Below are positions 260 to 62,840 of a DNA stretch of 64,000 nt, in pieces. Positions within the stretch are counted from its first letter, which is position 1. Each line of letters opens with the position of its first letter. Origin of the DNA: Candidatus Bathyarchaeota archaeon (lineage in GTDB: Archaea; Thermoproteota; Bathyarchaeia; Bathyarchaeales; Bathycorpusculaceae); NCBI GenBank assembly GCA_963717465.1, contig OY970340.1, positions 2,624,001 to 2,688,000 on the forward strand, in the 5' to 3' direction. Made by a program: the position numbers and the translations under genes. The notes under the pieces were generated by a model. It worked only from the letters and a program-made list of their open reading frames with translations, was not told where the DNA came from and did not search any database.

Positions 260-330
260 GTGCACGCTTTTCAGAATAGTCTTTAGCGAGAAAATAATTC
301 GAGACCTGGCGAGTTCAGATAGATACCGTC

Positions 331-525
331 TTATCCTCTATTTGGAGCAAGTTTGAATTGGCGTCTTTGTTTTTTGCCACGGGACCTCCTTGATCCTGCT
401 TCTTGCTCATCAAATTTCTCAGGTACTTTTTTGTTCTCACCAGTGTGCTTCTTCTCTACCTTTTTTTCGTAAGTTCGCGGCTTTGTTTCCTGTTCAGTCT
501 TTTTCACATTTTCTTTCTCACTCAT
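331..525 (-). CDS. small basic hypothetical protein
   Basis: ATG preceded by GAGGTGA RBS; K/E-rich ORF. Confidence 0.55.
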   Translation of the reverse strand: MSEKENVKKTEQETKPRTYEKKVEKKHTGENKKVPEKFDEQEAGSRRSRGKKQRRQFKLAPNRG

Positions 526-606
526 TTTCTTTCACCTCAGTTGCGAGGATTGTTTTCTTTTGGAAAAATATTAACTGAGTAATCGCTATTTTAGAGCCTT
601 GCCCGT

Positions 607-915
607 TTAGGGCTTTTGTTCTCTATCTTCACTGTAATCTCTATCCTCATGGGTTTCTTCTTCAGCTTCATCTTCGATTTCTTCTTCAGTCTCGCTTGCC
701 GCTTCACCCTCAGCCATTGATTTGTCTTCAGCTTCACCTTTTGGCGGATAAGCCTTGTCCAACCAGACTTCAAATTGTATCTTGCTGTCAGAGCTAGATA
801 AAGCCCAGTTACACAATTCATTAATAACCTTGCTAACGTCAATTTCGTGGTCGTCAGCTAAACGTGTCAAAAGTTCCTCCCAATTTATTTGTAAAGACAC
901 TGAAAAACTACCCAT
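607..915 (-). CDS. small protein with acidic tail
   Basis: ORF with RBS; a degraded paralog of its C-terminus is at 49743-49872. Confidence 0.7.
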   Translation of the reverse strand: MGSFSVSLQINWEELLTRLADDHEIDVSKVINELCNWALSSSDSKIQFEVWLDKAYPPKGEAEDKSMAEGEAASETEEEIEDEAEEETHEDRDYSEDREQKP

Positions 916-1195
916 CTAAAACGATCTCCGCAGTGTTTGTTAGTGCAAAGCAATATTTAAACTTCAAATATACTTGAGAATTTACTTTTCAGTTTTTTGA
1001 TTCTTTGCTACTGAACCCTTTTCCAAATCGCTCTATGGGCAATTAATACTTGAATAGTCAACTATGGACTAAGTTACCTTTAGCTCTTTTATCAGTTTCA
1101 GTTGTTTTGAGACCACAGTATGAGCAGTTTTGTATTAGGACAAGGGAAGCGGTTAACTATGCAATGTTTGGATTTATTTAAAAAAAGAAAGTAAT

Positions 1196-2839
1196 TTATT
1201 CTTCAGGCATACCACGCGGCATTCCTCCGCCTGGGCCACCTTTGGGGCCTTTGGCAGTTATGATGTCGTCTACTCGCAATATCATGGTCACTGATTCGGC
1301 TGCTGATTTAATAGCTTGCTCTTTAACAACGATTGGTTCGATGACTCCGTTTTCAATGCTGTCTTGCAGTTTACCTGTAAATAAGTTAATGCCAATATAC
1401 TTGCCATCCTCTTTATCATGCATTTGACGTAGTTCCATTAGTGTGTCTATTTGGTCCAAACCGCCGTTCTCTGCAAGCGTACGTGGAATTACTTCAACTG
1501 CATCTGCGAAAGCTTCTACTGCAAGTTGCTGCCTTCCTCCGACTTTGGTTGAGTAGTTGTGTAATCCTTTAGCGATTTCAATTTCGATTGCCCCGCCGCC
1601 AGCTACGATTTTGTTGTTTTCTGTAACATCTGAAATTACTGACAAGGCATCGATTAGTACTCTTTCAGCTTCATCCACCATTCTTTCAAGCCCTGCACGT
1701 ATCAGTATGGCTACTGAGTGTGGATCCTTGCATTTTTCAACGAAAATCATTTTGTCCTCGCCGATTTTGCGTTCTTCTACTAAGCCGGCAAAACCCAAGT
1801 CTGCTGTCATTAAATCATTCAAATTGGATGTCACTTTTCCGCCTGTGGCTCTAGCGAGTTTTTCCATATCTGACTCTTTGACGCGTTGTGCGGCCATTAT
1901 GCCCTCTTTAGAAAGATGATGTTGTACCATGTCGTCGATTCCTTTTTGGCAGAACACAACGTTTGCACCTGAAGCTTTGATCTTGGTTGTCATCATCTTA
2001 AGTGTGCTGTCCTCTTGATCGAGGAAAGCTTTCATCTGATTTGGCTCATGTATGCGTATTTCTGCGCTCATTTCGGTTTTTTCAATTTCTAGCGCCATAT
2101 CTAAAAGTACGATTTTCGCGTTCTCTATCTTTCTGGGCATCCCCGAATTGACGACTTCTTTGTCTATGATTATGCCTCTAATGAGTTGCGTCTCGATGAG
2201 GCTCCTGCCCGCCTTTTTTACCAGTTGTATGTTATCTATGTCGGCTATAATCCGTTCTCCTTGCTTCTGGGCTACCTGCTTTACAGCTTTTAGAGCTATT
2301 TCTGCAAAGTGCTCTTTAGCACTACCCACAGATTTGCTTCCCATTGACGTTAAAGCAACTTTCATCATCATTTTGTGATCCTCAACGTCAATATCCACTC
2401 CGTTTTTAGCTATGATTTCGATTGCTTTTTGGGCTGCTTTTCGGTATCCGCTTACTAGTACTGTTGGGTGAACGTTTTGGTCTAGTAGTTCTTCAGCTTT
2501 TTTGAGAAGTTCGCTTGATAATATTACTGCTGTAGTTGTTCCGTCGCCAACCATGTCATCTTGTGTTTTGGCGATTTCGATCATCATTCTTGCTGCTGGA
2601 TGCTCCGCGTCCATTTCCTTGAGAATTGTGGCGCCGTCGTTCGTTATAGTGATGTCACCTAAGCTATCAATTAGCATTTTGTCCATGCCTCGTGGGCCTA
2701 GAGTTGTTTTGAGTATTTCACCGATCACTTGGGCTGCCATAATGTTGTCTCGTTGGGCTTCTCTCCCTCTGCTTCGGGTTGTTCCTTCCTTTAAGATGAT
2801 TACTGGTTGACCACTTTGGGTTTGCGTTAAATATGCCAT
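1196..2839 (-). CDS. thermosome (group II chaperonin) subunit
   Basis: [26 protein letters not shown] motifs; GGGM tail. Confidence 0.97.
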
Positions 2840-3714: not shown

Positions 3715-6700
3715 TTGGGTTCTTCTGAGGATAAAAGCACGTTCGAGTTTCCGATTGTAGGAATTGGTGCTTCTGCAGGCGGCTTAGATCCAATCAGAAA
3801 ACTGCTTGAGGACTTGCCCGTTGACACAGGCATGGCGTTTGTAGTTATTCAGCATTTAGCTGCCGGACAGGAAAGTATGCTTCCTGAAATCCTCTCACGG
3901 TCCACCGAAATGAGAGTTCTTCAAGTCAAAGACGGCATGAAGGTTGAAAAAAATCAAGTTTATGTAATAACTCCCGGAACCACGATGACGTTGCAAAAGG
4001 AATATCTTAGAGTTATTCCAAAAGGAATAGCGCTCAAACCGATCAACGATTTTATGGTTTCCTTAGCCTTGGAGCGAAAAGCCCAAGCAATCGGAATTGT
4101 GTTATCAGGAACAGGTAATGATGGAACTGAAGGGTTGAAAGCAATTAAATCTGAAGGTGGCATAACATTTGTACAGGACCCAGAAACTGCCCAATACGCT
4201 GATATGCCTCGCAATGCAATAGAAGCCCAAATTGCATATTTTATTCTTTCACCAGAAAACATCGTGAAAGATCTAGTGAGAATCGCCAAGAACCCTCAAA
4301 TTCGTTTTGAAACAGAAGCTCCTGAGCTAAATAAAACTGAAAGTTCACTGAAGAAAATTCTCACAATGCTTAATGTCTCATTCGGCATTGATTTTACTCA
4401 CTATAAGGCAACTACCATAAACAGACGTTTGGCACGGCGTATGGTGATTAACAAGATTGAAACAGACAAGGAATATATTGCGTTTCTGCGATCGCATCCC
4501 AAAGAACTAGACGAGTTGTTTGATGACTTGCTTATAGGTGTTACAAGTTTCTTTAGAGAATCCCAAACATTTGAAGTTTTAAAGAAAAAAGTGTTTCCCG
4601 AGCTAGTCAAAAACAGATCAGTTAATGACTCAATACGTATCTGGGTTCCTGGATGTTCCACAGGTGAAGAAGTATATTCTCTTGCGATAGCAATACTGGA
4701 ATTTCTTGAAGAAAAATCCATTACAAGTCTGCGGGTTCAGATTTTTGGCACTGATGCAAATGAAAAAAATATTGACAAAGCGCGACATGGGCTGTATCCA
4801 AAGACAATAGATGAACAGGTTGCTCAAGACAGGCTTAAAAGGTTCTTTGAAGTACAAAATGGAAATTACCAAATATCTAAACTCATCAGGGATATGTGTA
4901 TATTCGCAAAGCAGGATATAACCAATGATCCACCTTTCTCTAACTTAGACCTCATAATGTGCCGGAACGTTCTCATCTATTTTGATTCACTTCTCCATGA
5001 AAAGATGTTCCCAATCTTTCATTATGGGCTAAAAAACAACGGTTTTCTTGTTATCGGCGAATCCGAAAGCATTGGAAAATACAATTATTTGTTTGAACAA
5101 ATTACGTCTAAAGGCTTAATTTTCAAGAAGAAACATGCTCAACCCCAAGTCTTTTTACGTCCAGATACATTTGTTCCATACTCTCCCGCTAAGAAGGCTA
5201 AACAGCTTGAAAAACCCAATGCTATGGTTTTGCTGAAAGAGGAAACCGACCGTATATTAATGGCTGAGTATGTTCCCGCATCTTTGCTAATAAATAATAA
5301 TTTGGAGATTTTATTTTTTCGTGGTCAGGTTAACCCATTTCTTGCTCACGAACCAGGAGCAGCAAGTTTGAATGCGGCAAAGCTTGTCCGAAAAGAGTTG
5401 AGAACAGATGTTCAAACCATGATTTACCGCGCGAGAAAAGAGAATAAGGCTCTTAAAGAAAAAGTACAGTTGAAACTTGAAGAACAACAAAAAAACATTA
5501 CTATTCAAGTTAAACCTTTAAAATTAGCGGATTATGAAGAGCCGTTCTTTTTGATAACCTTTGAAGAACAGCCGTTACCTCGCATGCTTTCAGGTAAAGA
5601 AGCCAAATATCCTACACCTGCTAAAAATGAAACTGCCAAAGATAAACAGATTCAAGAGCTTAGAGAGGATTTGGAGTCAACTAAGCAGTCTTTGCAAACT
5701 ATTATTGAAGCGCAAGAGGCAACCAACGAAGAGTTGCGGTCAACAATGGAAGAATCGCAATCTAGCAATGAAGAATTGCAGAGCACTAACGAGGAGTTGG
5801 AAACGGCAAAGGAGGAGCTGCAGTCAAGTAATGAGGAATTGCAGACGCTTAATGAAGAGCTCAATAACCGAAATTTAACTCTTGGCCGCTTGAATGATGA
5901 TTTAACTAATCTGCAAACAAATATCGATCTTCCAGTGGTTATTGTCGATAGAGACTTGAGAATTAGGCGCTTTACAAGCTCGGCTCAAGAGCTTTTCAAG
6001 ATTTCGCCATCTGATGTTGGGCGTTCAATTATCACCATTAATTCAGTAGTTTATAATGCAAATTTAGAAAAGATAATAGCGGATGTGATTTCCAAACTTT
6101 CGCCGGTCAACCTGAGAAGTTACCTGTGCTGGCGACCGTTTATTTGAAATGAGGGTTCGACCGTACTTATCCAACGAAAAAAAAATTGATGGCGCAGTCT
6201 TAACCTTCTCAGACATTACCGAACGCAAGAAAGCTGAATTGATGCTTGAAGAGTACAAGATTAGCTTAGAGAAGCTTGTTGAAGAGCGAACAAAGAAACT
6301 TGAAATCATCGCGTTATATGCTCGAAATTTAATTGAAGCAAGTCTTGACCCTTTGGTAACTATTAGCGTTGAAGGTAAAATTACTGACGTTAACAAATCC
6401 ACAGAGATGGTCACTGGCTGCCAAAGAAAAGAATTAATTGGCAGCGACTTCTCGAATTACTTTACTGACCAAGAAAAAGCAACGAGCGGATACAAGCAAG
6501 TCTTAACCAAAGGCTTTGTGAAAGATTACCCCTTGGTAATTAAACATAAATCTGGAAAAACTACTGAAGTATTGTACAATGCCACCGTTTACACGAATAA
6601 TGCGGGCGAAATACAAGGCGTTTTTGCGGCGGCAAGAGACATTACTGAGCTTAGAAAGGCAGAAAAAGAGGCTCAGGAAGCAGCAAAGAAACTAAAAGAT

Positions 6701-7366
6701 TCTGAGCGTTTAGCAACTATAGGTATTACAGCTGGTATGGTAGGTCATGATATTCGTAACCCATTGCAGGCTATAAGTGGCGATGTATATTTGGCGAAAA
6801 CCGAGTTGGCTTCAACGCCTGAGAGCGAAGCTAAAAAGACCGCATTGGAAAGTTTGGATGAGATTGAAAAGAGCATTTCTTATATTAATAAGATCATAGT
6901 TGATCTGCAAGATTTCGCTAAGCCGTTAGCTCCAAAACTTGAGGAAATTGATCTTGAACAAACAGTTCACTTGGTCTTAGCTACACTGGATATGCCTGAA
7001 AAAATAGACTTTTCGCTGGCTATCAGCGAGGGTTTTCCAAAACTTAAAACTGATCCAACATACATCCGAAGAATACTGACAAATTTATCCAACAATGCCA
7101 TTCAAGCAATGCCAAAAGGAGGCAAACTTGCAATAACTGCGGCTATCATAAGTGGCAAAGCCGTTATTACTGTTGAAGATACAGGTGAGGGCATAGCTGA
7201 AAGCGTCAGAAGCAAAATATTCACACCACTAGAGACGACAAAAGCCAAAGGTCAAGGCTTTGGCTTAGCCGTGGTTAAAAGGTTTACAGAAGCATTGGGT
7301 GGAACAGTCAGGTTTGAAAGTGAGGTTGGAAAAGGAACTAAATTTATTGTCGAATTTACTGTCTAA
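3715..7366 (+). CDS. CheB-CheR-PAS histidine kinase fusion, split by a +1 frameshift near 6116
   Basis: GIGASAGG (CheB), WVPGCSTGEE and CRNVLIYF (CheR), STNEEL coiled coil, PAS, H-box GHDIRNPL, GFGL G2 box; removing one base gives N-L-E-V-T-C-A-G-D-R-L-F-E-M-R across the break. Confidence 0.88.
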
Positions 7367-7574
7367 TTTTATGGATACAACGATTAAATTTTTTGCGTGC
7401 AGTTTAGCCAGCGTTAACTTGGGATTGGATTCCGAGACTCATCCTTTCATCAATGTCTTCAGTTTGTTTATCTCATTAAAGCGCGTCGCGCTAATAAAAA
7501 ATTCAAGTGCCACGCCACAAAATTCGTTAAATAATCTTTTTTAACAAAAAAGAAGGGGAGTGGTGTTTTTAGGT

Positions 7575-8598: not shown

Positions 8599-8632
8599 TG
8601 TTGTAGTTGCTTGACAGTCACATATGCTTAAT
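8599..8632 (+). promoter_or_regulatory. TGT/ACA dyad box plus TATA-like box
   Basis: tgttgt agttgc ttgaca gtcaca tatg cttaat; same architecture at 12 other sites. Confidence 0.7.
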
Positions 8633-8665
8633 TGCTATACAACCAAGCTATAAGTTGTGAGTTAA

Positions 8666-8902
8666 ATGGCTTTTAGTAATAGATTAGGAATTATGTCTCA
8701 TATTATCCGTCTCTGCGGAACAGCGAAAGACAAGGGTAGGATTATGAACAGGTTAGGTTTGAATGATGTTCAAGCAGAATCCTATTTGACAATTCTCATG
8801 CAGCAAAGCATGATTATGCAAAACAACGGCAGATATGTCATAACAACAAAAGGACAAGGTTACATCTCATCCTACAATAGACTTAGAAAAATGGTGCTCT
8901 AA
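8666..8902 (+). CDS. small winged-helix DNA-binding protein
   Basis: YLxIL...GRYVITTKG wHTH pattern; same-length paralog at 32093-32329. Confidence 0.8.
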   Translation: MAFSNRLGIMSHIIRLCGTAKDKGRIMNRLGLNDVQAESYLTILMQQSMIMQNNGRYVITTKGQGYISSYNRLRKMVL

Positions 8903-8947
8903 GTGTTAGCTAGCGCTTTTGAATCATGATTTAGAGGCAAATTATAT

Positions 8948-10725: not shown

Positions 10726-11316
10726 TTGTTTAGCAGAAGAAAGGGAAAAAGTTTAATGCTGAAAGAAAAAATCAAGAATTCACGTATTTATATTCTTATT
10801 CGTCAATTCAGCGAGTTCATCGTAAAAAATCTAGTTATGAGACCTTTAAACAAGCGTTTTATTATACTTATTTTAGGTATATTTTGTGTTTTAAGCTTAT
10901 TATCCGGGGTTATTGCTTCAAGCAATATTTCAGGTTTACTGAGCACTACTTCCTTCGCAAGCAAAGGATTAGTAAATACTCTAGCCACAACAGGAGACAT
11001 TAACGTTTATTGGAATAGTAATCTGACCAACAAGGTTTCAACTATAAATTGGGGAACAATATCTCCAGGCGCGTTTAGCAACATTACTATTTACGTCCAG
11101 AACATTGCAAGCACACCCGTGACCTTGAATCTATCTGCAACCGATTGGAACCCGACCAGTTGCTCCTCATACATGACCTTAACTTGGAATTATCTCCAAG
11201 GACAAGAATTACTAGCAGGTCAAAGCATCTTGATCGTCATTACCTTGCAAGTTTTAAGCAATATTACAGACATTACCAACTTTAGCTTCAACACCATGAT
11301 CAACGCAAATGCTTAG
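10726..11316 (+). CDS. secreted/membrane-anchored hypothetical protein (true start probably ~10837)
   Basis: Hydrophobic N-terminal helix, N/S/T-rich body. Confidence 0.7.
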   Translation: MFSRRKGKSLMLKEKIKNSRIYILIRQFSEFIVKNLVMRPLNKRFIILILGIFCVLSLLSGVIASSNISGLLSTTSFASKGLVNTLATTGDINVYWNSNLTNKVSTINWGTISPGAFSNITIYVQNIASTPVTLNLSATDWNPTSCSSYMTLTWNYLQGQELLAGQSILIVITLQVLSNITDITNFSFNTMINANA

Positions 11317-11930
11317 GCTTAAGGCAATTAGCGCGCTAGAATAATGGATATACCCAAAAAGGTACTTTTGATTCTGGAAGAGCATGTGAAGTTAAGAGAT
11401 TTCATCGTAAAAAATTTTTAATTAGTGATGCGGCTTTTGGAACTTAAAGAATTAGTGTGTGCTGGAAAACCTAGTTAAGCAAATTAACTTCGTGTTTGAG
11501 CCAAGTTTTTGAGTTTTGATAAGTCGTTTATAGCAGGTTGAGTCTAAGCCTTTAGGCGTTTACCAGCTCGTATATTATAGCGTGCTTTCGCATTGCTTGC
11601 CAGCTCTTAGCTGTTTAAATTGACAAGCCCTATGATTTACGAACGTCTTGAGCTTTCTTCTCAACCTGCAATTTATAAATATGTTAAATAAATCAATAAA
11701 TTTTTGTGACTGTTTAGCTACAGTCAATTAGCGCGCAGGGTTCTTCCCAATCGTTATAACGTAGTTTTTGGTCAAATTTCTTTTAAGATCTTGTTTAACA
11801 TAGAAAACTGTTTTTAGGGAGTGAAAGCAAAAAAAAGAAATTAAAACCAAGATTGAATTTAGGGACAAGCCGCGTGTTAAGTCAGTTTACCTCTTCTTGT
11901 TTGAGAAGAAAAAAAAGAAGGTTATTTTTT

Positions 11931-12434: not shown

Positions 12435-12506
12435 ATCAATTAACCTTGCAAAGGTAATTGCAAAGTCACACATAATAAGCTACAATAACCGTTTCTAACG
12501 CGCGTT

Positions 12507-12643
12507 AGTCGTGGAAAGCCTGACCCAGAAGCTATGGTTGGAAGAGATGGAAAAACCTTCAAGCTTGGCTACAAGCTGCACATGGTTACGGACGCGAAGC
12601 CAGAGCTGCCTTTGCTATGATTGCTACGCCTGCGAACGATAAC
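12507..12643 (+). pseudogene. internal fragment of a DDE transposase (IS5/IS1182-like)
   Basis: Translates SRGKPDPEAMVGRDGKTFKLGYKLHMVTDAKPELP/AMIATPANDN; GYKLH...PAN motif. Confidence 0.75.
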
Positions 12644-12809
12644 ACGCGCGACAGAACTACCACCAAAGGCGGCGCACTAATAAATGAAACGAACCCCAAG
12701 ATTCATACCGAAGAACATGACAGATGAGAATAATTCCCAAAACAAAATCTGTAGTTTTAAAAATGGTCTTTGAAGCAACTAAAGTCATCAACCCGATTTT
12801 TCACAAAGG

Positions 12810-13055
12810 CTACTCTACTTGGAAGACGTTTCCGCATTTTGTGCATCTGACGCTTTGCTTCTCAGTTCCTTTGGAAATTATCAAAAGGTAACCGCAAGAA
12901 GGGCACTTGATTGACTCTACCTTATAGTTCACTGATTCCGTTCTCGCAACTGTTTCTGTCCTGGGCGCTGGTTCGGTTCGGGGTTCCAGCTCTGTTCTAG
13001 GGGCTGGTTCGGTTCTAGCCTCGGGTTCCGATTTGTTTTCTTGAACGTTTGTCAA
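12810..13055 (-). CDS. Zn-ribbon protein with EPxPRT repeats
   Basis: CPSC...CTKC; 18-bp repeats; GGGGGATG RBS. Confidence 0.7.
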   Translation of the reverse strand: MTNVQENKSEPEARTEPAPRTELEPRTEPAPRTETVARTESVNYKVESIKCPSCGYLLIISKGTEKQSVRCTKCGNVFQVE

Positions 13056-14014
13056 CTAATTCATCCCCCTAATAATGCCTTACTCATTTCAATTCCTGTG
13101 CTCTTATTGTTGCTGTCTAGTTATAAACCTTCCCTGTAAATAGCACGCGCTCTTCTGCTCGATATTAAGAACAAGACTATCTATGCACCATAGCTAACAC
13201 GATATATGCTATAGCTTAAGCTAAGTTTATAGCGCGTGCGAAAAAAATTGATATAATATAATGTAACGGTTAAAAAATTGTTAGAACAATTTGGTGCACG
13301 CGCAAGACTTATGGTTAAAAAAATTGAGGTAGCTCGTTGAGTGCTAAACCATAACGTGTGCGCATTTTTTTCTGTGAGCTACAGCTTTCCTTGCAATCGC
13401 TGATCGATCAGCCTTGGCTTTCATTGCTGTATCCATAATTCGTTGTGAACCAGTACGGAAACGATTTACACCAAACATTTTTTTCTTTGAAAGAATACTT
13501 TTCTTTTTCGAACTCAATTCATTTCAACTCTGAAGTTATGCTGTGTGAATAAATAAAGATAGCATTTATGAAACAAGAATTCATATTCTAACTTAACAGT
13601 CTCTGCAAGCGCGCACTCTGTTTTTGTGTTAGCATGAGGCTTGAAGGTTAGTCTATGTGTCTTAATAATGAGTGATTGAAACTGACTTAACTAGAAGTGA
13701 AGAGAGACTTCTTAAAGTGAAAGAAGTTTTGCAACAGTCTGTTTTGTAATGCTTATAATTTAACAAAAGTATTGTTAGTTGAATTAACCCTGTTTTAATC
13801 CAAGAGAAAATAAAAATGAGTGGTAGAGGGGGACTGGTGATTTTTTCATCATTTTTTTAGCAATCTATAGTGTATGCTCGATTCTGACATATCACGCTGT
13901 ATACTGGATTTAGCTATGTTATACTTAGTATGTTATGTTTAGAGTACCTTACCAATTGATTAGTATCTAAACCTAGTATGCACTAGGTAATTTTCTATGA
14001 TTTTTAATTGGTGT

Positions 14015-33292: not shown

Positions 33293-33316
33293 ACTTATCT
33301 ATCCCTCCTTTCTACG

Positions 33317-34532: not shown

Positions 34533-35062
34533 TTTTGATCAATTCCTTTAACATTTAAATCGGCTATTTCAACTCTTATTAAAAGCGGTACGGGAAAAAT
34601 TGGCTCCACTCCAACCCGCTTAGCCTTAACCCTATAGTCCAATTCAAGCCATTAATAGGTATGTGAATGTGAGTTAACATCTACAGCCCAAGCCCAACTT
34701 ATCACTTTCAGAAACAAACGCCGATCTTTGAGGTTACGCCGGTTCCATAGAAAAGCTCGGAACAAATCCAGTGACTAAAAGATGCCTGTATTGAGAAAAG
34801 ACCCGCGTCATTATAAACTGAATTTTCCCTTGCAGGGTAACTACCAAGTATCGGTAAGCACCCTGAATTAAAAAGATTGAATCGAGCTAGAGTTTTCACC
34901 ATAAATCGTCTTTTTTAATCGCTGGTTCAGTGTACACATATCACATAAGGTTAAGGGTATACTATGGTGTGTATACTGAACCGAGTAAGCACTTACCATT
35001 TTTAGAACCAGCAACCTGTTTCAAAAAACCTAATTTTTTCTTATTTTATGGTTGGCGCGCAT

Positions 35063-35524
35063 GCTTGTTCCTAAAAATGGCTAAAAATGGTTTTAAGTCA
35101 GTTTATTCATCAGTTAAACTATGGATGTATTTGATGAACGTATCTTGTCCGTTTTGAAGGATGAAAAACCAAGACTCTTCATTCAGCTCCTAAAAGAAGC
35201 TGGGTTTTCCCATAACACATTAAAACTGCATCTTAAGAAACTGCTAAGCGGAGGGCTTGTGATGCGAGAGAAAACTGCCTCTGAAGGTCTTGGAAGACCA
35301 AGTTACGTTTATACGGTCTCGCCTAAAGCAAAGAAGCCGGTTTCCGCTGCCCTGGCAGACCCCTCGATTGAACTCGTACACTTACCATTCAGCCGGCTTA
35401 AGCTGCAGGTTCGAGAAGGGTGGATTCTGCAAAGAGACCAGAACTAGTCGCAGCCCGCGAACTTGCCCACAAATACCCAAAGTCGGCTAATAAAAACCAT
35501 TTTTGACCAAATTTCGGAACAACC
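35063..35524 (+). mobile_element. ~460-bp element bounded by 32-bp imperfect inverted repeats, carrying one wHTH gene
   Basis: Left GCTTGTTCCTAAAAATGGCTAAAAATGGTTTT; right AAAACCATTTTTGACCAAATTTCGGAACAACC; second copy at 60617-60898. Confidence 0.7.
35121..35490 (+). CDS. wHTH protein with Cys-containing tail (frameshift ~35402)
   Basis: FSHNTLKLHL...GRPSYVY; CRFEKGGFCKE...CPQI in the shifted frame. Confidence 0.7.
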
Positions 35525-35614
35525 ACGCACGCTAGAATTACGTTTTTTCGGGCATCCTGCCAATACTTGTTTCAGGTAAATCTTTTCCGCTTGTATGTGT
35601 GCGCAGAAAGGTTT

Positions 35615-37529: not shown

Positions 37530-37929
37530 AGAATTTAATAGAATTGGTGACAACTTAAAGTAAGGAATAACACAGTAGAAAGACCTTACTCGCAGTATCC
37601 AGAAGTTTGCATGGGCGATACGAATCTCAGTTTATAGCGCGCTAAAAGTAAACTAAATCTCAACCATTTTTCATTTTTTCAAAAACTTTTTCTTAGGAAG
37701 TTTTGGTCTTTTCATTCTTTCAACTTTGGCAATCAAATTTTTAATCCTGTAAGAAATTAGTCGATAATGCTAAAAAACTTGAGAAGCAGAAAACAAAGCT
37801 TGATTCAGAACAGATTAAGACCCATTTGCGCTCCTTGTTCTGCTCGTGTATAAGTACACTAAGCGTATAAGCAAGAAAATTTACTTACTTACAAACAAGT
37901 TTATTCTTGCTTTAAGGAGTACAGTTAAT

Positions 37930-47611: not shown

Positions 47612-49645
47612 TTATGGGTCTTCTACAGTCGCGCATAGGACAAAAGCGGAGCGAGCGGGCAGATAGAGGCTAAGCACATTTTGAGTATTTATTTCAGTAT
47701 TGTTCACGATTGTGAAGTGTGTCTGCTGAGGTAACAATCGGCCTTGTCCCCCGTACTTTGGTGCATCACAGTCCATGATCATGCGGTATTTTCCAGGGGG
47801 AGCTTCAAACTGATAATCAGTAAAGGATTGATTGGGATTAAAATTGAAGGCAAAAATCAGATCAGCCCTTTTGAAGATGATTACTTGTTTCATGGAATCT
47901 TCATGCAGAAGCTGCGGAATGGATGTTTCAAGAAGGCGGTGCGTCTTGGCCATTGCAATCATGTCGCGGTCGAACATGGCTAGCAAATGATGCTTTAGGT
48001 GGACGCCGTCTGCGAGATGCCATTGTCGACGAGCATGCTTGAATGACCAGTTGTTTCCCTCGCGTGGAAAATCTATCCAGTCAGGGTGACCGAATTCATT
48101 GCCCATAAAGTTCAGATAACCGTGGCTAGCCGTGCCCAAGGTTATCAAACGGATCATCTTATGTAATGCAATTCCACGGGCGACATTTGAGTTGTCATCA
48201 ACGATCCTCATATAGTGGTACATGTCTTCACCGATCAGTCGGAAAATAAGTGTCTGGTCTCCCACTAACGCTTGGTCATGAGATTCGGCGTAACTAATGG
48301 TTTTCTCATCTGCCCTGCGGTTGGTGAGTTCAAACCAAAGATGACCGATGGGCCAGTCTTCATCTTTGAAATCTTTTATTAAACGGATCCAGTAATCAGG
48401 CACCCCCATTGCAAAGCGATAGTCAAAACCGAACCCGCCCTCTGATTGGGAAACGGCTAAACCTGGCATGCCGCTGACATCTTCTGCTATGGTGATGGCG
48501 TCGGGTCGGATGTCATGAATCACTCGGTTAGCAAGAGCCAAATAGGTCAAGGCATCTTCATCCACACTGCCATCGAAGTAATCATTATATGAAGTGAACT
48601 CTCGCCTAAGACCATGTTCCAGATAAAGCATACTTGTGACGCCGTCGAAGCGAAAGCCATCAAAGTGGAATTCGTCTAGCCAGTATCGGCAATTGGAAAG
48701 CAAAAAATGTAGAACCTGAGGTTTGTCATAATCGAAGCAGCGTGAATCCCATGCTTTGTGTTTTCCGCGTAGGCCACTGTGAAAATACTGAAATAGTGTC
48801 CCGTCGAAGCGACTTAATCCCTCGACCTCGTTGGACACGGAGTGGGAATGAATCAGATCCATGAAGACGGTGAGCCCTTTGGCGTGGGCCGTGTCGATCA
48901 GGAGTTTCAAATCCTCAGGCGTTCCGTACCGCGATGAAGAGGCGAAATAGCTTGATACCTGATATCCAAATGATCCGTAGTAGGGATGTTCTTGAATGGC
49001 CATCAACTGTAACGTGTTGTAACCCGCATCCACGATTCGCGGAAGCACTCCGAGAGTAAATTCACGGAAGGATCCGATTTTTTCTTCTTCCTGTGCCATA
49101 CCGATATGCGCTTCATAGACAATAGGGGGCTCTTCAGATCGTTTGAAATCGGGTTTTTTCCAACGATACGTCTCTGGTGGTGCCCATACTTGGGCGTTGA
49201 AAATCAGAGTTTTTGGATCTTGCACAACCCGTCGAGCATAGGCTGGAATGCGATCGCCTTCGCCGCCTGCCCAATGAATATGGAGCCGATACAGGTCACC
49301 ATGCTCCAGTTTGTCGCCAGGTAGGCGAATTTCCCAGACACCATAGTCGTTGATCTTTTCCATTTCAAATTCTCTGCTCACTTGCCATTTACTCATATCT
49401 CCTATCAGGTAGATCGCCGTTGCGTTTGGCGCCCATTCACGGAAAACCCATTCTCCTCGTTGGAAATGCAGACCGAAGTATTCGTGGCCGGACGCAAACT
49501 CTGCTAGGCTCTTTTTACCTTGTGTAAGGCGTTGCTCTGTTTCTTCGATGTGTTCCAATCGGCGTCGAATCTGATCCGAAAACGGCGTGAGGTACGGGTC
49601 GCTTTTTAGCAGACGAATTAATCGGCTTTCAACACCAATCATCAA
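47612..49645 (-). CDS. glgB: 1,4-alpha-glucan branching enzyme (GH13)
   Basis: REWAPNA, FDGFRFDGVTSM, AEDVSG, YAESHDQ, FMGNEFGHP. Confidence 0.93.
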   Translation of the reverse strand: MMIGVESRLIRLLKSDPYLTPFSDQIRRRLEHIEETEQRLTQGKKSLAEFASGHEYFGLHFQRGEWVFREWAPNATAIYLIGDMSKWQVSREFEMEKINDYGVWEIRLPGDKLEHGDLYRLHIHWAGGEGDRIPAYARRVVQDPKTLIFNAQVWAPPETYRWKKPDFKRSEEPPIVYEAHIGMAQEEEKIGSFREFTLGVLPRIVDAGYNTLQLMAIQEHPYYGSFGYQVSSYFASSSRYGTPEDLKLLIDTAHAKGLTVFMDLIHSHSVSNEVEGLSRFDGTLFQYFHSGLRGKHKAWDSRCFDYDKPQVLHFLLSNCRYWLDEFHFDGFRFDGVTSMLYLEHGLRREFTSYNDYFDGSVDEDALTYLALANRVIHDIRPDAITIAEDVSGMPGLAVSQSEGGFGFDYRFAMGVPDYWIRLIKDFKDEDWPIGHLWFELTNRRADEKTISYAESHDQALVGDQTLIFRLIGEDMYHYMRIVDDNSNVARGIALHKMIRLITLGTASHGYLNFMGNEFGHPDWIDFPREGNNWSFKHARRQWHLADGVHLKHHLLAMFDRDMIAMAKTHRLLETSIPQLLHEDSMKQVIIFKRADLIFAFNFNPNQSFTDYQFEAPPGKYRMIMDCDAPKYGGQGRLLPQQTHFTIVNNTEINTQNVLSLYLPARSAFVLCATVEDP

Positions 49646-49889: not shown

Positions 49890-50138
49890 TTATTTGATTA
49901 CTTGTGCGTTTGCTGCTTTGCTGGTAATTCTGGTTATCTTTACTTTTACGCGGTCGCCCGGTTTTGCTTCTTCAACATAAATTACGAAGCCTTGATTTCT
50001 TGCTATGCCTTCCCCTTTTGAGCTTAATTCTGTAATTTCTACTTCTAATTCTTCGCCCAGCTCGACTGGGCAACGCTTAAAACCCTTGCCATGGCCACGT
50101 TTTCCCTCGTGACTGCCACCTTGCCTTGATTTACTCAT
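49890..50138 (-). CDS. stand-alone TRAM domain RNA-binding protein
   Basis: PVELGEE.EVEI...GEGIAR..GFVIYV. Confidence 0.9.
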   Translation of the reverse strand: MSKSRQGGSHEGKRGHGKGFKRCPVELGEELEVEITELSSKGEGIARNQGFVIYVEEAKPGDRVKVKITRITSKAANAQVIK

Positions 50139-50491: not shown

Positions 50492-50869
50492 TTGTTGTGT
50501 TGTTTTAAAATGAAGCTTGAACTGAAGATTTTTGAAATAGATACTCATGCAGGAAGGCGTTTTCGTTTTGCGATTTTTGACTCAGACAAGCCTGGCGGTT
50601 ATCCGAGAAATTTTGTCTGTTTATTGCCTTCAAGAGTGTCTGAAGCGGGGGAACCAAATAATATTTTCCAAAGTATTTTTGGAAACAAAGGTGTGGAGCA
50701 GGCTAAGCGATTGTTGACTGAAGCTTTGAAGAAAGCTACGAACGTTGAAATTAAGAGTGAAGTAGAAAGAAGACTGGAGCTTCTCAACCCGAAAACAGGA
50801 ATACAAATAAAATGTGGGTCTCGTGGAGACGTTGTTGCTGTTAAACGAACAAGGAGTTATTCTAGGTAG
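50492..50869 (+). CDS. YPxNFVCxLP-family paralog, C-terminally truncated
   Basis: Lacks the last CxxC of its paralogs; stop lies in TAGCGCAC. Confidence 0.7.
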   Translation: MLCCFKMKLELKIFEIDTHAGRRFRFAIFDSDKPGGYPRNFVCLLPSRVSEAGEPNNIFQSIFGNKGVEQAKRLLTEALKKATNVEIKSEVERRLELLNPKTGIQIKCGSRGDVVAVKRTRSYSR

Positions 50870-51350
50870 CGCACATGGCTCCTAAAATAGTCGGAAGAAT
50901 GTTTTTGGTTAACTTTTTCCGTAATAACTTTTATTTTAGAAACCTGTTGATGATGCAAAAGCCAAAAACCACAAAATAGGAAAGAATTACGTGCCTCAAA
51001 AAAGAATTCAGAGGACACGAATGCACGCTAACAGTAAAATAAGCTGGGCGAATAACAAAAATTTAAAACAACAAACGTAATGTTTTAAAGCTAATTTCGC
51101 CATTTTTAGTTAGCGGTTCTTTTGATGAACGCATATGTCACTAAACAAACTCACGAGCCTAAAATAGGTAAATGTGGTGAATGCATAAAACTGGGCGATA
51201 CATCAGACAAAGAAGTAATCTTTTGCGAATCAAGCTGCAAATGGTTCTGCGCGAAACACTTAAGTGCACGCGCTGATCTGGATTTTTAGAAGCTAATTTT
51301 GATTGCCCATTTCGATTTTTGAATGAATAATAAATGAATAAAATTTTTTA

Positions 51351-59864: not shown

Positions 59865-60616
59865 TTACTGGCTTTTCCAAATGTTAAGCGAGCATTGATT
59901 ATAACAGCAATATGTTTGTTTATACTTGTGACTTTTATAACTTAACGCGTACGCATAAGTATACTAGGTTAAAAACGCATATTATTTCATTTCAAGTCAA
60001 GAAGAGTGAAATAATATATTCATATTATAAGGGTAAAAGTGTAGTCAGAAGCGTTCACCCCTGCATATATATAGTGCTGTAACTTATTCTATCGTCTGTT
60101 GTTTGGATTTTTAAAAGAAAAACATTATGGGAATTATGGAAAATGACGCATAAAAAGAAAATGAAGCAAAGAGGGAAAAAACTTTACCGAAATACCCACG
60201 GAACCATTTATAGAGTAAGAACCAAGAAGCCAAAACGCACCAATCGGCCACTGAAAAAACAAGTTTCCAAGATAGCAAGTGTCGCCTGAATCTAATCAAG
60301 ACCACTATATGGTTTAAGTAACTGCGAAGAAAAGACAAGTAATTGGTTACACTAGAACCTTGTCAGATAAATCGGTTCGTCCGATGTAGAAGATAAAAGT
60401 TCTCGATAAACTTTCATGGCTTGTTCCCGCTTTTCGCCGACTAAGTTAAGAAGTTCCTTTTCAAGGATTCTAATTTCAATTGCTTTTGTTTCTTCGAGTT
60501 TCATTTTAATAACCTCATGGCTAATCGAGTAGGATGCCAAAAGACAAACCGTTCAGCCTTTTATCAGGCTCTACCTAATAAGTACGATATCTGCGTCCCC
60601 TATAAAGGTGCGCGCA

Positions 60617-60898
60617 TGGAGACCTGCTTCTTAGCATTAGGTGAGATAGAGTAACTATAACTTGGTCTCCCAAGGCTCTTAGAAGCAGTTTTTTGCCGAA
60701 CCAAAACGCCCTCACCTAACAGTCTCTTTAGATGCAGCTTCAAAGTATTGTGGGAAAACTCGACTCATCCAAGAGCTGAATGAATAGTCTCGGTTTTCTG
60801 TCCTTCAGAACAAAGAGAATTCGCTCATCAAAAATACCCATATACTAACTATGATAGTAACTTACTCAAACCATTTTTAGCCAAATTTAGGAACAAAC
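60617..60898 (-). mobile_element. truncated second copy of the wHTH mini-element
   Basis: IR at 60868-60898; MGIFDERIL..LKD.KPRLFIQLL...SHNTLKLHL...GRPSY from 60841. Confidence 0.75.
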
Positions 60899-60965
60899 AT
60901 GCACGCTCGAAGTAAATGCGCATGTTAATAGTAATTACAGTTTTATCCGCTTGGCAGTAGCGCTC

Positions 60966-61130
60966 GATTATGTCTCAAAAGGTTTGATGTCTGATCTAAA
61001 TAACTATTTTGCGATGTCAGTTAAAATTCCCAGGATGAAGGCAGGTAAGATGCAGACTTTTGAACCTTGATTAGCGAGAGGGTTCGCTAAATATCTGTGG
61101 AATGAACGGAAATACTGGAATCCAGTTTAG
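60966..61130 (+). pseudogene. putative C-terminal fragment of a solo Cas1-like gene
   Basis: LMSDLNNYFAMSVKIPRMKAGKMQTFE...FAKYLWNERKYWNP resembles, from memory, archaeal solo-Cas1 C-termini. Confidence 0.55.
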
Positions 61131-61187
61131 CATGCGCAATCTTTAATACTTCTTCAACCCAAAAGGGCTTGTTGAGGGGTTATTCGA

Positions 61188-62669
61188 GTGAACAGGTTAC
61201 GTGTTTTAGCAGCCTTGGTTTGCATTATTTTTGTTTTCAGTTTTGTTTTGATTCCGTTTGCAAACGCGGACTGGACAATGTATATGTCGGATCCATCTCA
61301 CAGCGGTACAGGAACAAGCAATGCCGTGCTGGCAGGCACACTACTCTGGAATTACACAACCAATGGCGCTGTCATATCGTCTCCCGCTGTTGCTTATGGA
61401 ATAGTCTATTTAGGCTCCTACGATGGTAATGTTTATGCATTGAACGCTGCCAACGGCGACAAACTCTGGAATTACACAACCGGCGGTGCGGTTACTTCGT
61501 CTCCTGCTGTTGTTAACGGCATAGTCTACACAGGTTCGTACGACAATAAGGTTTATGCTTTGAACGCTACAAGTGGCATCCAACTCTGGAATTACACAAC
61601 CGGCGGTGCGGTTACTTCGTCTCCTGCTGTTGTTAACGGCATAGTCTACACAGGTTCGTACGACAATAAGGTTTATGCTTTGAACGCTACAAGTGGCATC
61701 CAACTCTGGAATTACACAACCGGCGGCATAGTTCAGTCGTCTCCTGCAGTTGTCAACGGTGTAGTCTACTTCGGCTCAGAGGACAGCGACGTTTATGCTC
61801 TAAATGCTTCCAGCGGTGAAAAAATCTGGAGCTACCCCACTGGATTGGAGGTTGAGTCCTCTCCTGCCGTTGCAAACGGTGTAGTCTACATAGGCTCGCT
61901 TATGAGTAACGTTTATGCTTTGAACGCTGCCAACGGCGACAAACTCTGGAATTACACAGTTGGAAGTTCAACAGTTACCGATTCAATTGAATCATCTCCT
62001 ACAGCGGCCAACAGCGTAGTTTGCACCTCCTCACAGCAAGGCAACGTTTATGATTTGGAGGCTGCTATCAACTACAAACTCTTGGCGCTAGGATTTTCCA
62101 GTAATCCTTCGTCTCCCGCTATTGTCAGCGGCGTAGTCTACGTAACTGCTATGAGCGGTGGTGTTTATGCTTTAAACGCTACCAATGGTGTCACACTCTG
62201 GAATTCCAACGCCGGCTGGGAAGAGTCGTCCCCTGCAGTAGTTAGCGGTGCACTCTACCTAAACTCGGGACCGCCCGATACTTCTGAAAATGGCTACGTT
62301 TATGCTTTGAATACTACAAACGGCTCCCAACTCTGGAATTACAAAATTGGTTACTATGATGGTAGTTACTTGCCTAGTATTTCGTCTCCTGCTGTTGTCA
62401 ATGGTATACTCTATGTGGGCTGTGGTGATGGCAGCGTTTATGCTTTGATTAGTTCATCTGCGTCATCTACGTCTTCTCCCTCACCTAAGCCATCCCCAAC
62501 ACCAACACCCACTTCAACTTTGTCGCCTGCAGTGAATGCAGCGGGATTCGTTTTCAGTCCAGTCGACTGGATCATAGTAGTGGTCATAATCATCATAGCG
62601 TTATTCTTAATACTCCTTCTATGGCACAGGCTCAGCAAGAAAAAGCCTCAAGAAACCCAAACAACATAA
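61188..62669 (+). CDS. PQQ-like beta-propeller surface protein
   Basis: SSPAV..G.VY.GS.D..VYALNA..G..LWNY repeats; signal peptide, P/T linker, C-terminal TM. Confidence 0.92.
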   Translation: MNRLRVLAALVCIIFVFSFVLIPFANADWTMYMSDPSHSGTGTSNAVLAGTLLWNYTTNGAVISSPAVAYGIVYLGSYDGNVYALNAANGDKLWNYTTGGAVTSSPAVVNGIVYTGSYDNKVYALNATSGIQLWNYTTGGAVTSSPAVVNGIVYTGSYDNKVYALNATSGIQLWNYTTGGIVQSSPAVVNGVVYFGSEDSDVYALNASSGEKIWSYPTGLEVESSPAVANGVVYIGSLMSNVYALNAANGDKLWNYTVGSSTVTDSIESSPTAANSVVCTSSQQGNVYDLEAAINYKLLALGFSSNPSSPAIVSGVVYVTAMSGGVYALNATNGVTLWNSNAGWEESSPAVVSGALYLNSGPPDTSENGYVYALNTTNGSQLWNYKIGYYDGSYLPSISSPAVVNGILYVGCGDGSVYALISSSASSTSSPSPKPSPTPTPTSTLSPAVNAAGFVFSPVDWIIVVVIIIIALFLILLLWHRLSKKKPQETQTT

Positions 62670-62840
62670 AAAGTGCATCTATTAATTCATTTTTTTCTTT
62701 TGTCTTGGTGGTTAAATGGACAGATAGAGAGTCGCTAACAGACACAGACAGGTTGTCTCCCCAGCCGAGATGGGGTTTGTAAAATTAAGCGTGTTTAGGT
62801 TTGGAGTACTCCTTAGGTCATCTTTTGAGCACACGCTAAG

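What the first reader, a model, noticed from the sequence alone, without database searches (positions are those of the whole stretch)
260..62838. Pervasive GC-rich purine-pyrimidine 'seam' words at module boundaries and gene breakpoints: candidate DNA-shuffling system
Seen: AT-rich spacers repeatedly contain 7-12-nt words such as TAGCGCGCTA, GCACGCTA, TAACGCGCG and GTGCACGC. By eye there are roughly 45, e.g. near 260, 7480, 8555, 8572, 10600, 11328, 11577, 11728, 12496, 12642, 13141, 13230, 13294, 13607, 22430, 24732, 25105, 31795, 35054, 35525, 36103, 36577, 37166, 37635, 39723, 41291, 42357, 49880, 50867, 51022, 51264, 59943, 60608, 60899, 60958, 61128 and 62828. They coincide with breakpoints: both sides of the transposase fragment and of the Cas1-like fragment, and the cut ends of the wHTH copy (60608), the 607-915 paralog (49880), ORF 50492-50869 and ORF 41135-41293. 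Several abut intact promoters (11729, 36103, 36577). Inference: the island is built by joining fragments at a degenerate core. Candidate mechanisms are (i) target footprints of the G(G/C/T)yTGTTCC-ended IS family, whose ends here are all followed by such a word, (ii) relaxed recombinase core sites, or (iii) untemplated end-joining scars.
Basis: partly seen in the sequence, partly recalled or inferred. Interest (0 to 1): 0.88.

Follow-up and report, generated by a model that had tools for sequence, protein, structure and literature searches.

The report
GC-rich words mark transposon ends
The short GC-rich alternating words scattered through the spacers of this archaeal genome are real and over-represented, but the ones at "breakpoints" are mostly the outermost bases of insertion-sequence ends, so they do not show a new DNA-shuffling system.

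Summary
The words are there. Window spacers hold 64 such hexamers against 23.3±6.0 in shuffles, while window coding DNA is depleted (25 against 59.5). Genome-wide, GCGCGC, AGCGCGC and TAGCGCGC are the most over-represented intergenic k-mers.

The "seam" reading holds only in part. Just 9 of 37 sites lie within 10 nt of a detectable repeat endpoint, and about 94-95% of intergenic repeat endpoints have no word. Where a word does sit at a boundary, it is often the tip of a terminal inverted repeat. These belong to IS5/IS1182-like insertion sequences and their small derivatives. The tips are conserved in six genomes of the genus.

The intergenic excess is patchy across the genus. It follows this transposase group imperfectly: 5 of 7 genomes with it show the excess, 0 of 5 without it. 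About 94% of the words are solitary. I infer that they are relics or preferred targets of these elements (confidence about 0.5); a separate function is not excluded. No Cas1 fragment was found in the window. Verdict: an ordinary kind of system with an unusual signature.

The parts
35054..35540 (.). 487-bp MITE-like element. Its roughly 40-bp terminal inverted repeats begin with GCGCGC (left) and GCGTGC (right, read inward). It carries ORF 35121-35447 (108 aa, HTH_20) and no transposase.
   Evidence: Sequence and ends printed. The inverted-repeat pair scored 27/34. Pfam HTH_20.
60608..60906 (.). Internally deleted copy of the 35054-35540 element. The right repeat ends in ATGCACGC (60899-60906). 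On the left, a tip of about 10 nt (GTGCGCGCAT) is fused directly to internal sequence.
   Evidence: 75% DNA match to 35055-35345. tblastn of the HTH ORF. Boundary comparison with the full copy (rows 2684618 and 2684906).
150..268 (.). Solo end of the same repeat family (...TTAGGAACAGCCGTGCACGC); the word at 260-267 is the tip.
   Evidence: Repeat hits. Family pair 1545888/2624262. Both copies carry the word at the boundary.
50867..51031 (.). Small MITE-like repeat of about 165 bp. Its left end GCGCACATGGCTCCTAAAAT supplies the stop region of ORF 50492-50869. Its right end is ...ATGCACGC (51022-51028).
   Evidence: Repeat hits 50880-51031. Boundary rows 2674880, 2675024 and 2675031.
11847..11872 (.). 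Solo terminal repeat of the 'b' IS family (AATTTAGGGACAAGCC + GCGTGT). The word at 11728 (TTAGCGCGCAGGGTTCTTCCC) looks like a second, degenerate end, by eye only.
   Evidence: Member 2635871_L of the 6-member family. One search did not pair 11728 with it, so the two-ended reading is unproven.
12493..12656 (.). Relic of an IS5-like transposase gene (about 135 nt, frameshifted). It is bounded by TAACGCGCG and ACACGCGCG, which form 13-nt inverted arms and share a 7-nt direct repeat, ACGCGCG.
   Evidence: Sequence. Inverted arms 12493-12505 and 12644-12656, 85% complementary. The likeness to the DDE region of the b-type transposase printed is by eye; one reading frame of the fragment (12505-12639) was scanned and gave no Pfam hit.
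13270..13303 (.). Family-a-like end (TTAGAACAATTTGGTGCACGCGC). It abuts the 325-bp repeat 13305-13629, whose other copy lacks both the end and the word.
   Evidence: Repeat. Boundary row 2637305 (partner has no word). The family assignment is by eye.
11328..11339 (.). Solitary palindromic word TTAGCGCGCTAG, 12 nt after the stop of ORF 10726-11316.
   Evidence: no repeat endpoint within 743 nt.
37635..37644 (.). Solitary palindromic word TAGCGCGCTA.
   Evidence: no repeat endpoint within 991 nt.
7480..7493 (.). Double word AGCGCGTCGCGCT, between convergent genes, inside a 120-bp two-copy repeat.
   Evidence: pair 2450933/2631481.

Best explanation
The words are the sequence signature of a group of divergent IS5/IS1182-like insertion sequences (DDE_Tnp_1 + DUF772 transposases) and their small non-autonomous derivatives. 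This group is present in only some species of the genus.

SHOWN: at least three IS/MITE families in this genome, and related elements in five other genomes of the genus, have terminal inverted repeats whose outermost 6-9 nt are GCGCGC or a transition variant of it (GCGTGC, GCACGC). An inner conserved block follows, such as TTGTTCCTAAA, TTGTCCCTAAAT or ATAAnTGGTCATTAATT. The intergenic excess of the words is patchy in the genus and follows the presence of this transposase group, though imperfectly.

INFERRED: most of the solitary words (about 94% of intergenic clusters) are residue of this mobile DNA. They would be tips that outlived progressive internal deletion of the elements; the window shows a size series of 487, about 300, about 165 and about 150 bp. 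Alternatively they are the short GC-alternating targets into which these elements insert and which they duplicate. Because GCGCGC is its own reverse complement, the two tips of one element are also direct repeats, so deletion between them would leave one word. The variants are the CpG-to-TpG/CpA products of GCGCGC, as expected for decaying copies.

Not settled: whether the word belongs to the element or is a fixed target duplication, and why words crowd the first 40 nt after stop codons.
For: (1) IS ends.
- The window element 35054-35540 has roughly 40-bp repeats starting GCGCGC/GCGTGC.
- A word-anchored search for inverted pairs found 6 pairs, against 2 in a shifted control. One is the IS at G000 1160868-1162087, which holds a 336-aa transposase.
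- Pfam assigns DDE_Tnp_1 + DUF772 to both transposases tested.
- Flank clustering puts 32 of 533 intergenic word clusters into in-register families; random positions give 0.
- The same IS in G000, G059 and G031 (74-82% DNA identity) ends in CGCGCATAA...TTATGCGCGC in three different flanks.
- Related ISs end in AGCGCGC in G016 and in G072 and G041 (1.1-kb elements).

(2) Patchy distribution. The table gives observed/expected intergenic alternating words under a first-order model.

| Group | Genome: O/E |
|---|---|
| Transposase hits | G000 1.71, G003 1.27, G016 1.87, G041 1.42, G052 2.09, G059 0.81, G072 0.54 |
| No hits | G014 0.43, G064 0.41, G051 0.88, G042 0.65, G068 0 (0 seen, 2.5 expected) |

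Exact Mann-Whitney gives one-sided p = 0.009.
- Relatedness does not explain this. G052, with only 50% median aa identity to G000, shows the excess. G072 (67%), G059 (65%) and G014 (65%) do not.

(3) Placement fits mobile DNA.
- Spacers touching repeats carry 1.2-1.3 words per kb, against 0.87 in unique spacers.
- Solitary-word density correlates weakly with repeat content (Spearman 0.17, p = 0.04).
- Words are about equally frequent in divergent, tandem and convergent spacers, and there is no flanking consensus.
- In 88 spacers syntenic with six relatives, G000 has a word in 5 (one looks like 16S rRNA by eye), and none outside that one is shared.
- Word pairs within 40 nt number 34, against 17 expected.
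- Passages of PMC13548323 report that ISs in general prefer intergenic, inter-operonic, non-syntenic and AT-rich places, and that terminator-like sequences are over-represented next to them.

(4) Decay pattern. Transition variants of GCGCGC have O/E 1.45 and transversion variants 1.01.
Against: - Only 32 of 533 intergenic clusters (6%) have a recognisable repeat-like continuation. Only 18 of 533 carry the inner TIR core motif, against 2-7 in controls. So the link from solitary words to ISs is inference.
- Unique spacers are also enriched: 0.87 per kb, against about 0.62 per kb, which is my own scaling from the shuffles.
- Solitary words are not flanked by direct repeats of 2-4 nt (for 3 nt: 13 seen, 12.1 expected). 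A classical footprint with a target duplication is therefore not supported.
- No target duplication of 2 nt or more was visible at five intact IS copies.
- G059 and G072 carry these ISs, with GCGCGC tips and with an intact 82%-identical copy in G072. Yet neither shows an excess in the DNA sampled: 69 kb and 21 kb of spacers.
- The genome samples are partial: 60-400 kb per relative, and the two smallest yield only 5-7 kb of spacers. Kin are not independent.
- Words are densest 0-20 nt after stop codons (1.41 per kb) and rarest 0-20 nt before starts (0.49 per kb). A 3'-end function would explain this at least as well.
- My gene mask is a crude ORF mask. This genome uses in-frame TGA in some genes, according to earlier notes.
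Confidence: 0.5

Rival explanations
1. The words are a separate, lineage-variable functional signal. This would be a short palindrome (core AGCGCGCT) bound by a DNA-binding protein, or a Z-DNA-prone punctuation mark, placed mainly just after genes. The IS ends would merely resemble or target it.
For: These are the most over-represented intergenic k-mers. They are strongly depleted in coding DNA, with O/E 0.32-0.57. The core is palindromic, and the 3 nt on each side are complementary slightly more often than expected (22 against 13.8±3.5). Density peaks 0-40 nt after stop codons and is lowest before start codons. It is highest in convergent spacers (0.83 against 0.62-0.64 per kb). [quoted passage not shown]
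Against: There is no conserved flank or fixed distance to any gene feature. The excess is missing from 6 of the 11 relatives sampled, and in 5 of those 6 the words are depleted (O/E below 0.9). No word is shared at the same place in the few syntenic spacers, apart from a probable rRNA. The words vary by transitions like decaying sequence. Words of 6-10 nt are short for Z-DNA; PMC4060949 counts GC6 among 'Z-DNA-related patterns', and its alternating purine-pyrimidine patterns start at 12 nt.
Confidence: 0.2
2. A mutational or compositional by-product with no link to ISs. Examples are slippage-grown (GC)n microsatellites followed by CpG transitions, or short GC-alternating filler added by an end-joining polymerase.
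For: The words are solitary, lack context and are palindromic by composition. The variants are CpG transition products. Unique spacers are enriched too. Runs such as CGCGCGCG occur only in spacers (3 of 3).
Against: Other alternating hexamers are barely enriched (O/E 1.02-1.29), so general dinucleotide slippage does not fit. Most relatives with similar base composition show depletion instead. The same words are fixed at IS termini in six genomes, which a random process does not predict. No gene for such a polymerase was looked for.
Confidence: 0.15
3. One reading: a DNA-shuffling system, such as a relaxed site-specific recombinase, that joins unrelated fragments at a degenerate GC-alternating core.
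For: Some junctions look like seams. At G000 2111631-2111638 two different repeated modules meet at AGCGCGCA, which neither partner copy has. In all, 26 repeat endpoints carry a word that the partner copy lacks, against 13.9 expected for random intergenic positions. The transposase relic at 12493-12656 is flanked by a 7-nt direct repeat, ACGCGCG.
Against: About 94-95% of intergenic repeat endpoints have no word. Endpoints inside coding DNA show none above background (0.9% against 1.0-1.1%). If the expectation is raised to the local word density near repeats (offset controls), it rises to about 20 by my own scaling, and the residual excess is marginal. The core has no flanking binding arms. No Cas1 was found in the window.
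Confidence: 0.07

Closest known systems
IS5 / IS1182-type DDE insertion sequences
   Same: One ORF with DUF772 + DDE_Tnp_1 domains. Size 1.1-1.2 kb. Terminal inverted repeats of 22-28 nt. Several copies and fragments per genome, in different flanks in different species.
   Different: Both transposases score far below every curated NCBIfam cut-off (best: IS1182 112.8 bits against 270; IS5_4 60.9 against 140). The ends are GC-alternating palindromic words, and no separate target duplication of 2 nt or more is visible. I recall that IS5-family members usually make 2-9-bp duplications, often of a fixed short palindrome such as YTAR or TNA. That is recalled, not tested here.
MITEs and other internally deleted non-autonomous derivatives of cut-and-paste transposons
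   Same: Short elements that keep both terminal repeats and have lost the transposase: 35054-35540, 50867-51031, and the relic at 12493-12656. One copy keeps only about 10 nt of tip (60608).
   Different: Very low copy number: 2-6 recognisable ends per family. The 487-bp element carries an HTH ORF. No target duplications were seen.
REP/BIME elements and the IS elements that insert into them (IS1397 and similar; recalled)
   Same: GC-rich palindromic motifs in spacers, with a bias to gene 3' ends. They are lineage-specific, sometimes paired, and lie next to IS ends.
   Different: REPs are imperfect palindromes of about 20-40 nt with a conserved family consensus. Here nothing is conserved beyond about 8 nt, and extended flank complementarity is absent at 4 nt. 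RAYT genes were not looked for.
Over-represented short palindromes such as cyanobacterial HIP1, GCGATCGC (recalled)
   Same: A short GC-rich palindrome that is the top over-represented word in some lineages and absent in relatives.
   Different: As I recall, HIP1 occurs in thousands of copies in both genes and spacers. Here there are only tens to hundreds of copies, they are confined to spacers, and coding DNA is depleted.

Membership tests
IS5/IS1182-type insertion sequence | DDE transposase of the DDE_Tnp_1 type | tested here: met
   PF01609 at E 8.7e-17 and 2.5e-08, plus PF05598 (DUF772), for the two G000 transposases.
IS5/IS1182-type insertion sequence | Score above a curated family model cut-off (NCBIfam IS5, IS1182, IS4 and others) | tested here: not met
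   Best scores are 112.8 bits against a cut-off of 270 (IS1182) and 60.9 against 140 (IS5_4). This is a divergent group and cannot be assigned to a curated family.
IS5/IS1182-type insertion sequence | Terminal inverted repeats bounding the transposase gene | tested here: met
   22-28-nt repeats at 83-91% complementarity where the tool scored them, in G000, G059, G031, G016, G072 and G041.
IS5/IS1182-type insertion sequence | Direct target-site duplication flanking each copy | tested here: inconclusive
   No flanking duplication of 2 nt or more at five intact copies. In the three family-c copies the base before the left end equals the base after the right end (a/a, t/t, g/g). Part of the GCGCGC word may itself be the duplication.
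IS5/IS1182-type insertion sequence | Mobility: the same element in unrelated flanks | tested here: met
   The same IS at 74-82% DNA identity in three genomes, with similarity ending exactly at the repeats. There are multiple copies and fragments per genome.
MITE (for window 35054-35540 and its relatives) | Short, no transposase, terminal repeats matching an autonomous element, many copies, target duplication | tested here: inconclusive
   Short, with roughly 40-bp repeats and no transposase. Only 2-4 copies. No autonomous partner with the same inner repeat was identified. No duplication was seen.
Transposon excision footprint (for the solitary words) | A few terminal nucleotides of both ends, flanked by two copies of the target duplication | tested here: not met
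   Around 467 solitary clusters, flanking direct repeats of 2, 3 and 4 nt number 45, 13 and 5, against 42.4, 12.1 and 3.9 expected. The test has no power if the elements make no duplication.
REP/BIME-type extragenic palindrome | Family consensus of about 20-40 nt forming an imperfect hairpin | tested here: not met
   No flank conservation beyond A-GCGCGC-T. Flank complementarity at 4 nt is 4 against 4.1 expected.
   No conserved arms. No recombinase domain among the 60 window ORFs scanned. Only ORFs of 80 aa or more were scanned.
Z-DNA-promoting tract | An alternating GC run (GC6 or more) or an alternating R/Y run of 12 nt or more, as defined in PMC4060949 | tested here: inconclusive
   GCGCGC meets the paper's 'GC6' pattern, but most words are 6-10 nt. 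Whether they adopt Z-DNA cannot be tested with these tools.

The most novel reading that the evidence does not exclude
These transposases recognise a shape, not a sequence: a short GC-alternating, Z-DNA-prone tract where transitions are tolerated and transversions are not. The tract would serve both as their own terminus and as their insertion target. Each insertion or loss would then leave or lengthen such a tract and so create new targets. That would be a self-reinforcing process, and it would explain why some lineages accumulate hundreds of these otherwise disfavoured words in spacers. The words could then be co-opted as punctuation just after genes.
Probability: 0.12. Interest if true: 0.7.

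Novelty: new member of a known kind. Interest (0 to 1): 0.33.

Why it matters
- It replaces a proposed new DNA-shuffling system with a checkable account. An uncurated group of IS5/IS1182-like elements has unusual GC-alternating palindromic tips, and it appears to have left its mark on the spacers of some species of an uncultured mcrA-bearing archaeal genus.
- It gives annotators of these genomes a simple marker for IS/MITE ends and relics.
- It documents a lineage-specific excess of a word class that is generally suppressed in prokaryotes (PMC4060949, passages seen).
- If the solitary words prove to be targets or footprints, the system would be a compact case of mobile DNA reshaping the oligonucleotide content of non-coding DNA.

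Tried and rejected
- **Promoter element:** rejected. Density is the same in divergent, tandem and convergent spacers, and it is lowest just upstream of start codons.
- **Longer hidden motif or dispersed repeat:** none. Nothing is conserved beyond A-GCGCGC-T, and only 6% of clusters share flanks.
- **Intact low-copy elements bounded by two words:** only 6 pairs, against 2 in the control.
- **Footprints with target duplications:** no flanking direct repeats.
- **Synteny breaks against relatives:** could not be tested. The species of this genus share only 50-70% median aa identity. Just 88 syntenic spacers were found in about 2.3 Mb fetched from six of the relatives.
- **Near-identical strains:**
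  - The sequencing-run search found two peat-metagenome runs holding 6-7% of the sampled words.
  - Their contigs were mostly under 90% alike and showed nothing usable at the words.
  - The JGI metagenome scan with ORF 10726-11316 gave 20 loci at 48% identity or less.
- **Known RNAs:** no Rfam family at gathering score and no tRNA in the window.
- **Cas1-like fragment:** the only genome hit is weak (18.7 bits) and lies outside the window.
- **Paralogy of ORF 607-915 with ORF 49890-50138:** none.
- **Literature:**
  - Three full-text searches were run.
  - Among the 3, 10 and 10 papers listed, none by its title or abstract start described these IS ends, or an intergenic excess of GC-alternating words in archaea.
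  - I read passages of only two papers.
  - I did not search ISfinder, which is not available here.
- **Earlier notes of this scan:** nothing near the window or on these words.

Full report
**What the window is.** The window lies at 2,624,001-2,688,000 of a single 3.05-Mb contig with 40% G+C. Thermosome, eIF-1A, L35Ae and TrmB genes mark it as archaeal, and the genome has one mcrA. Earlier notes of this scan call it a Bathyarchaeon; I did not test that label. The window is gene-poor. 34% of it lies outside ORFs of 70 aa or more, against 18% genome-wide, and it holds many short repeats shared with other parts of the genome.

- My definition is an alternating purine/pyrimidine hexamer with at least 5 G/C (14 words). 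25 of 37 sites pass it and 35 of 37 are intergenic.
- Window spacers hold 64 such hexamers against 23.3±6.0 in 200 dinucleotide shuffles (largest 43). Window coding DNA holds 25 against 59.5±8.5.
- The tool's whole-window shuffles agree: GCRCGC 39 against 23.6±6.6, and TAGCGC 35 against 18.4±4.5.
- Against a third-order Markov model of the 549 kb of intergenic DNA, the top words at every length belong to this class:

| Word | Seen | Expected | How counted |
|---|---|---|---|
| GCGCGC | 96 sites | 45 | sites |
| AGCGCGC | 96 | 31 | both strands summed |
| TAGCGCGC | 40 | 7.9 | both strands summed |
| AGCGCGCT | 24 sites | 5.4 | sites |

- The class as a whole gives 878 against 561±32. Non-alternating GC-rich hexamers are depleted, 13601 against 15139.
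- The excess is specific to GC-rich alternating words: O/E 1.6-2.5 in spacers and 0.32-0.57 in genes. Other alternating words give 1.02-1.29.
- It survives removal of GC-rich or long spacers (O/E 1.58-1.61).
- Passages of PMC4060949 state that such patterns are generally suppressed in prokaryotes. The excess therefore runs against the usual trend.

**Do the words sit at breakpoints?** Only partly.
- I took all intragenomic BLAST alignments (1,417) as a proxy for module boundaries.
- Of 660 endpoints in spacers, 5.0% have a word within 5 nt. Offset positions give 2.1% and random spacer positions 1.5%. Endpoints in genes show nothing.
- So 95% of module boundaries have no word.
- I compared the two copies at each of the 39 endpoints that have a word within 8 nt. 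In 13 both copies carry the word, so it is part of the repeated element. In 26 only one copy does.
- Random expectation is 13.9. It is about 20 if the higher word density around repeats is allowed for; that is my own scaling from the offset controls. A few true-looking seams remain, for example G000 2111631-2111638, but the residue is marginal.

**What the boundary words are.**
- *Element 35054-35540.* It is a 487-bp unit with roughly 40-bp terminal inverted repeats: GCGCGCATGCTTGTTCCTAAAAATGG... and GCGTGCGTGGTTGTTCCGAAATTTGG... It carries a 108-aa HTH ORF.
- *Its relatives in the window.*
  - 60608-60906 is a deleted copy in which a tip of about 10 nt is fused to internal sequence.
  - 150-268 and 50867-51031 are further ends or derivatives. 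The latter supplies the end of ORF 50492-50869.
- *Family 'b'.* It begins AGCGCRCTGGCTTGTCCCTAAAT and has six ends in the genome. One is at window 11847-11872.
- *Family 'c'.* This is a 1.2-kb IS at 1160868-1162087.
- *The transposases.* Those of b and c carry DDE_Tnp_1 + DUF772 but fall far below every curated NCBIfam cut-off.
- *The relic at 12493-12656.* It is bounded by ACGCGCG words that form 13-nt inverted arms.
- *Other species.*
  - Family c in G059 and G031 ends in CGCGCATAA...TTATGCGCGC in unrelated flanks.
  - A related IS in G016 ends in AGCGCGC.
  - 1.1-kb b-type ISs in G072 and G041 end in (A)GCGCGC.
- *Tip or target?* The tip varies among copies only by transitions, while the inner block is constant. 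No separate target duplication of 2 nt or more is visible. I therefore cannot say whether the word is the true tip or a fixed duplicated target.

**The solitary majority.**
- Only 32 of 533 intergenic clusters share flanks with another. Only 18 carry the inner repeat core, against 2-7 in controls.
- The rest have no consensus beyond A-GCGCGC-T and no flanking direct repeats.
- They show no preference for promoter-bearing spacers.
- They pair at 40 nt or less twice as often as expected (34 against 17).
- They are denser in spacers that touch repeats (1.2-1.3 against 0.87 per kb).
- They are densest just after stop codons (1.41 per kb at 0-20 nt) and rarest before start codons (0.49 per kb).
- Transition variants of GCGCGC are enriched (O/E 1.45) and transversion variants are not (1.01).

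**Comparison across the genus.** I defined the groups by the transposase search before counting any words. The ratio is observed/expected intergenic alternating words under a first-order model.

| Genome | Transposase hits | O/E | Median aa identity to G000 |
|---|---|---|---|
| G000 | yes | 1.71 | - |
| G003 | yes | 1.27 | 70% |
| G016 | yes | 1.87 | 64% |
| G041 | yes | 1.42 | 58% |
| G052 | yes | 2.09 | 50% |
| G059 | yes | 0.81 | 65% |
| G072 | yes | 0.54 | 67% |
| G014 | no | 0.43 | 65% |
| G064 | no | 0.41 | 61% |
| G051 | no | 0.88 | 59% |
| G042 | no | 0.65 | 56% |
| G068 | no | 0 (0 seen, 2.5 expected) | 63% |

- Exact Mann-Whitney gives one-sided p = 0.009.
- The excess does not follow relatedness: the most distant genome has it and several closer ones lack it (identities).
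- There are two exceptions. G059 has family c only. G072 has an intact b-type IS 82% identical to that of G000.
- The samples are partial, and the genomes are kin, so the test overstates.

**Reading.** I think it most likely (about 0.5) that the words are the signature of this IS group. The tips at IS/MITE ends are shown. The solitary words as relics or targets are inferred.
- The window's series of ever-shorter derivatives that always keep the tip supports this.
- So do the palindromic tip (the two tips of one element are direct repeats), the decay-like variants and the patchy distribution.
- The general 'IS niche' reported in PMC13548323 also fits: intergenic, non-syntenic, AT-rich, close to terminator-like sequences (passages).

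**What could not be done.**
- No near-identical strain or population data exist in the collections searched.
- Synteny with the species-level relatives is too low for a breakpoint analysis (88 syntenic spacers).
- The gene mask is a crude ORF mask.
- Supplements of the two papers were not consulted.

Noticed in passing
window 14030-14150: A run of about 15 C (around 14036-14050) and, about 80 nt on, GCCCCCCACAGAGGGGGGGA, a C6/G7 inverted pair. Both lie in a 1.3-kb stretch with no ORF (13055-14368).
   Followed up: no
window 3715-6147: One 810-aa ORF fuses CheB methylesterase, the CheR methyltransferase domains (N-terminal and SAM-binding) and a PAS domain. A PAS histidine kinase (6149-7366) follows directly.
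   Followed up: no
window 17592-18194 and 18503-18931: Two neighbouring ORFs both match the N-terminal part of DUF72 (profile positions 5-186 and 8-106). This could be a duplicated or broken gene pair.
   Followed up: no
window 21344-22355: A radical-SAM ORF (21344-21991) and a DUF3463 ORF (22074-22355) lie head to tail, as if they were one gene split by a stop or frameshift. Earlier notes say this genome reads some TGA codons as selenocysteine.
   Followed up: no
genome-wide (G000): Word density falls from 1.41 per kb in the first 20 nt after stop codons to 0.40 per kb beyond 240 nt. It is only 0.49 per kb in the 20 nt before start codons. In 7 cases the word directly follows the stop codon.
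   Followed up: partly
window spacers: The non-palindromic word GCACGC lies mostly on the + strand in window spacers: about 12 against 4, counted by eye. Genome-wide the two orientations are equal (337 against 341).
   Followed up: no
window 30402-31002 and 32990-33614; 8599-8907 and 32025-32334: Segmental duplications inside the window at 88% and 84% identity. They cover PRC-barrel, TrmB and wHTH genes.
   Followed up: no
window 37846-49645: A glycogen and central-carbon cluster: two glycogen-phosphorylase-like genes (one with a YHS domain), PEP synthase/PPDK and a GlgB-like branching enzyme.
   Followed up: no
window 61188-62669: A PQQ/beta-propeller ORF with strong internal DNA repeats and several paralogues elsewhere in the genome (around 1129000, 1156000 and 2115000).
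   Followed up: no
L053/L054/L055 (G000, G059, G031): At the three family-c IS copies, the base just before the left end equals the base just after the right end (a/a, t/t, g/g). This could be a 1-nt duplication or an asymmetric tip.
   Followed up: partly
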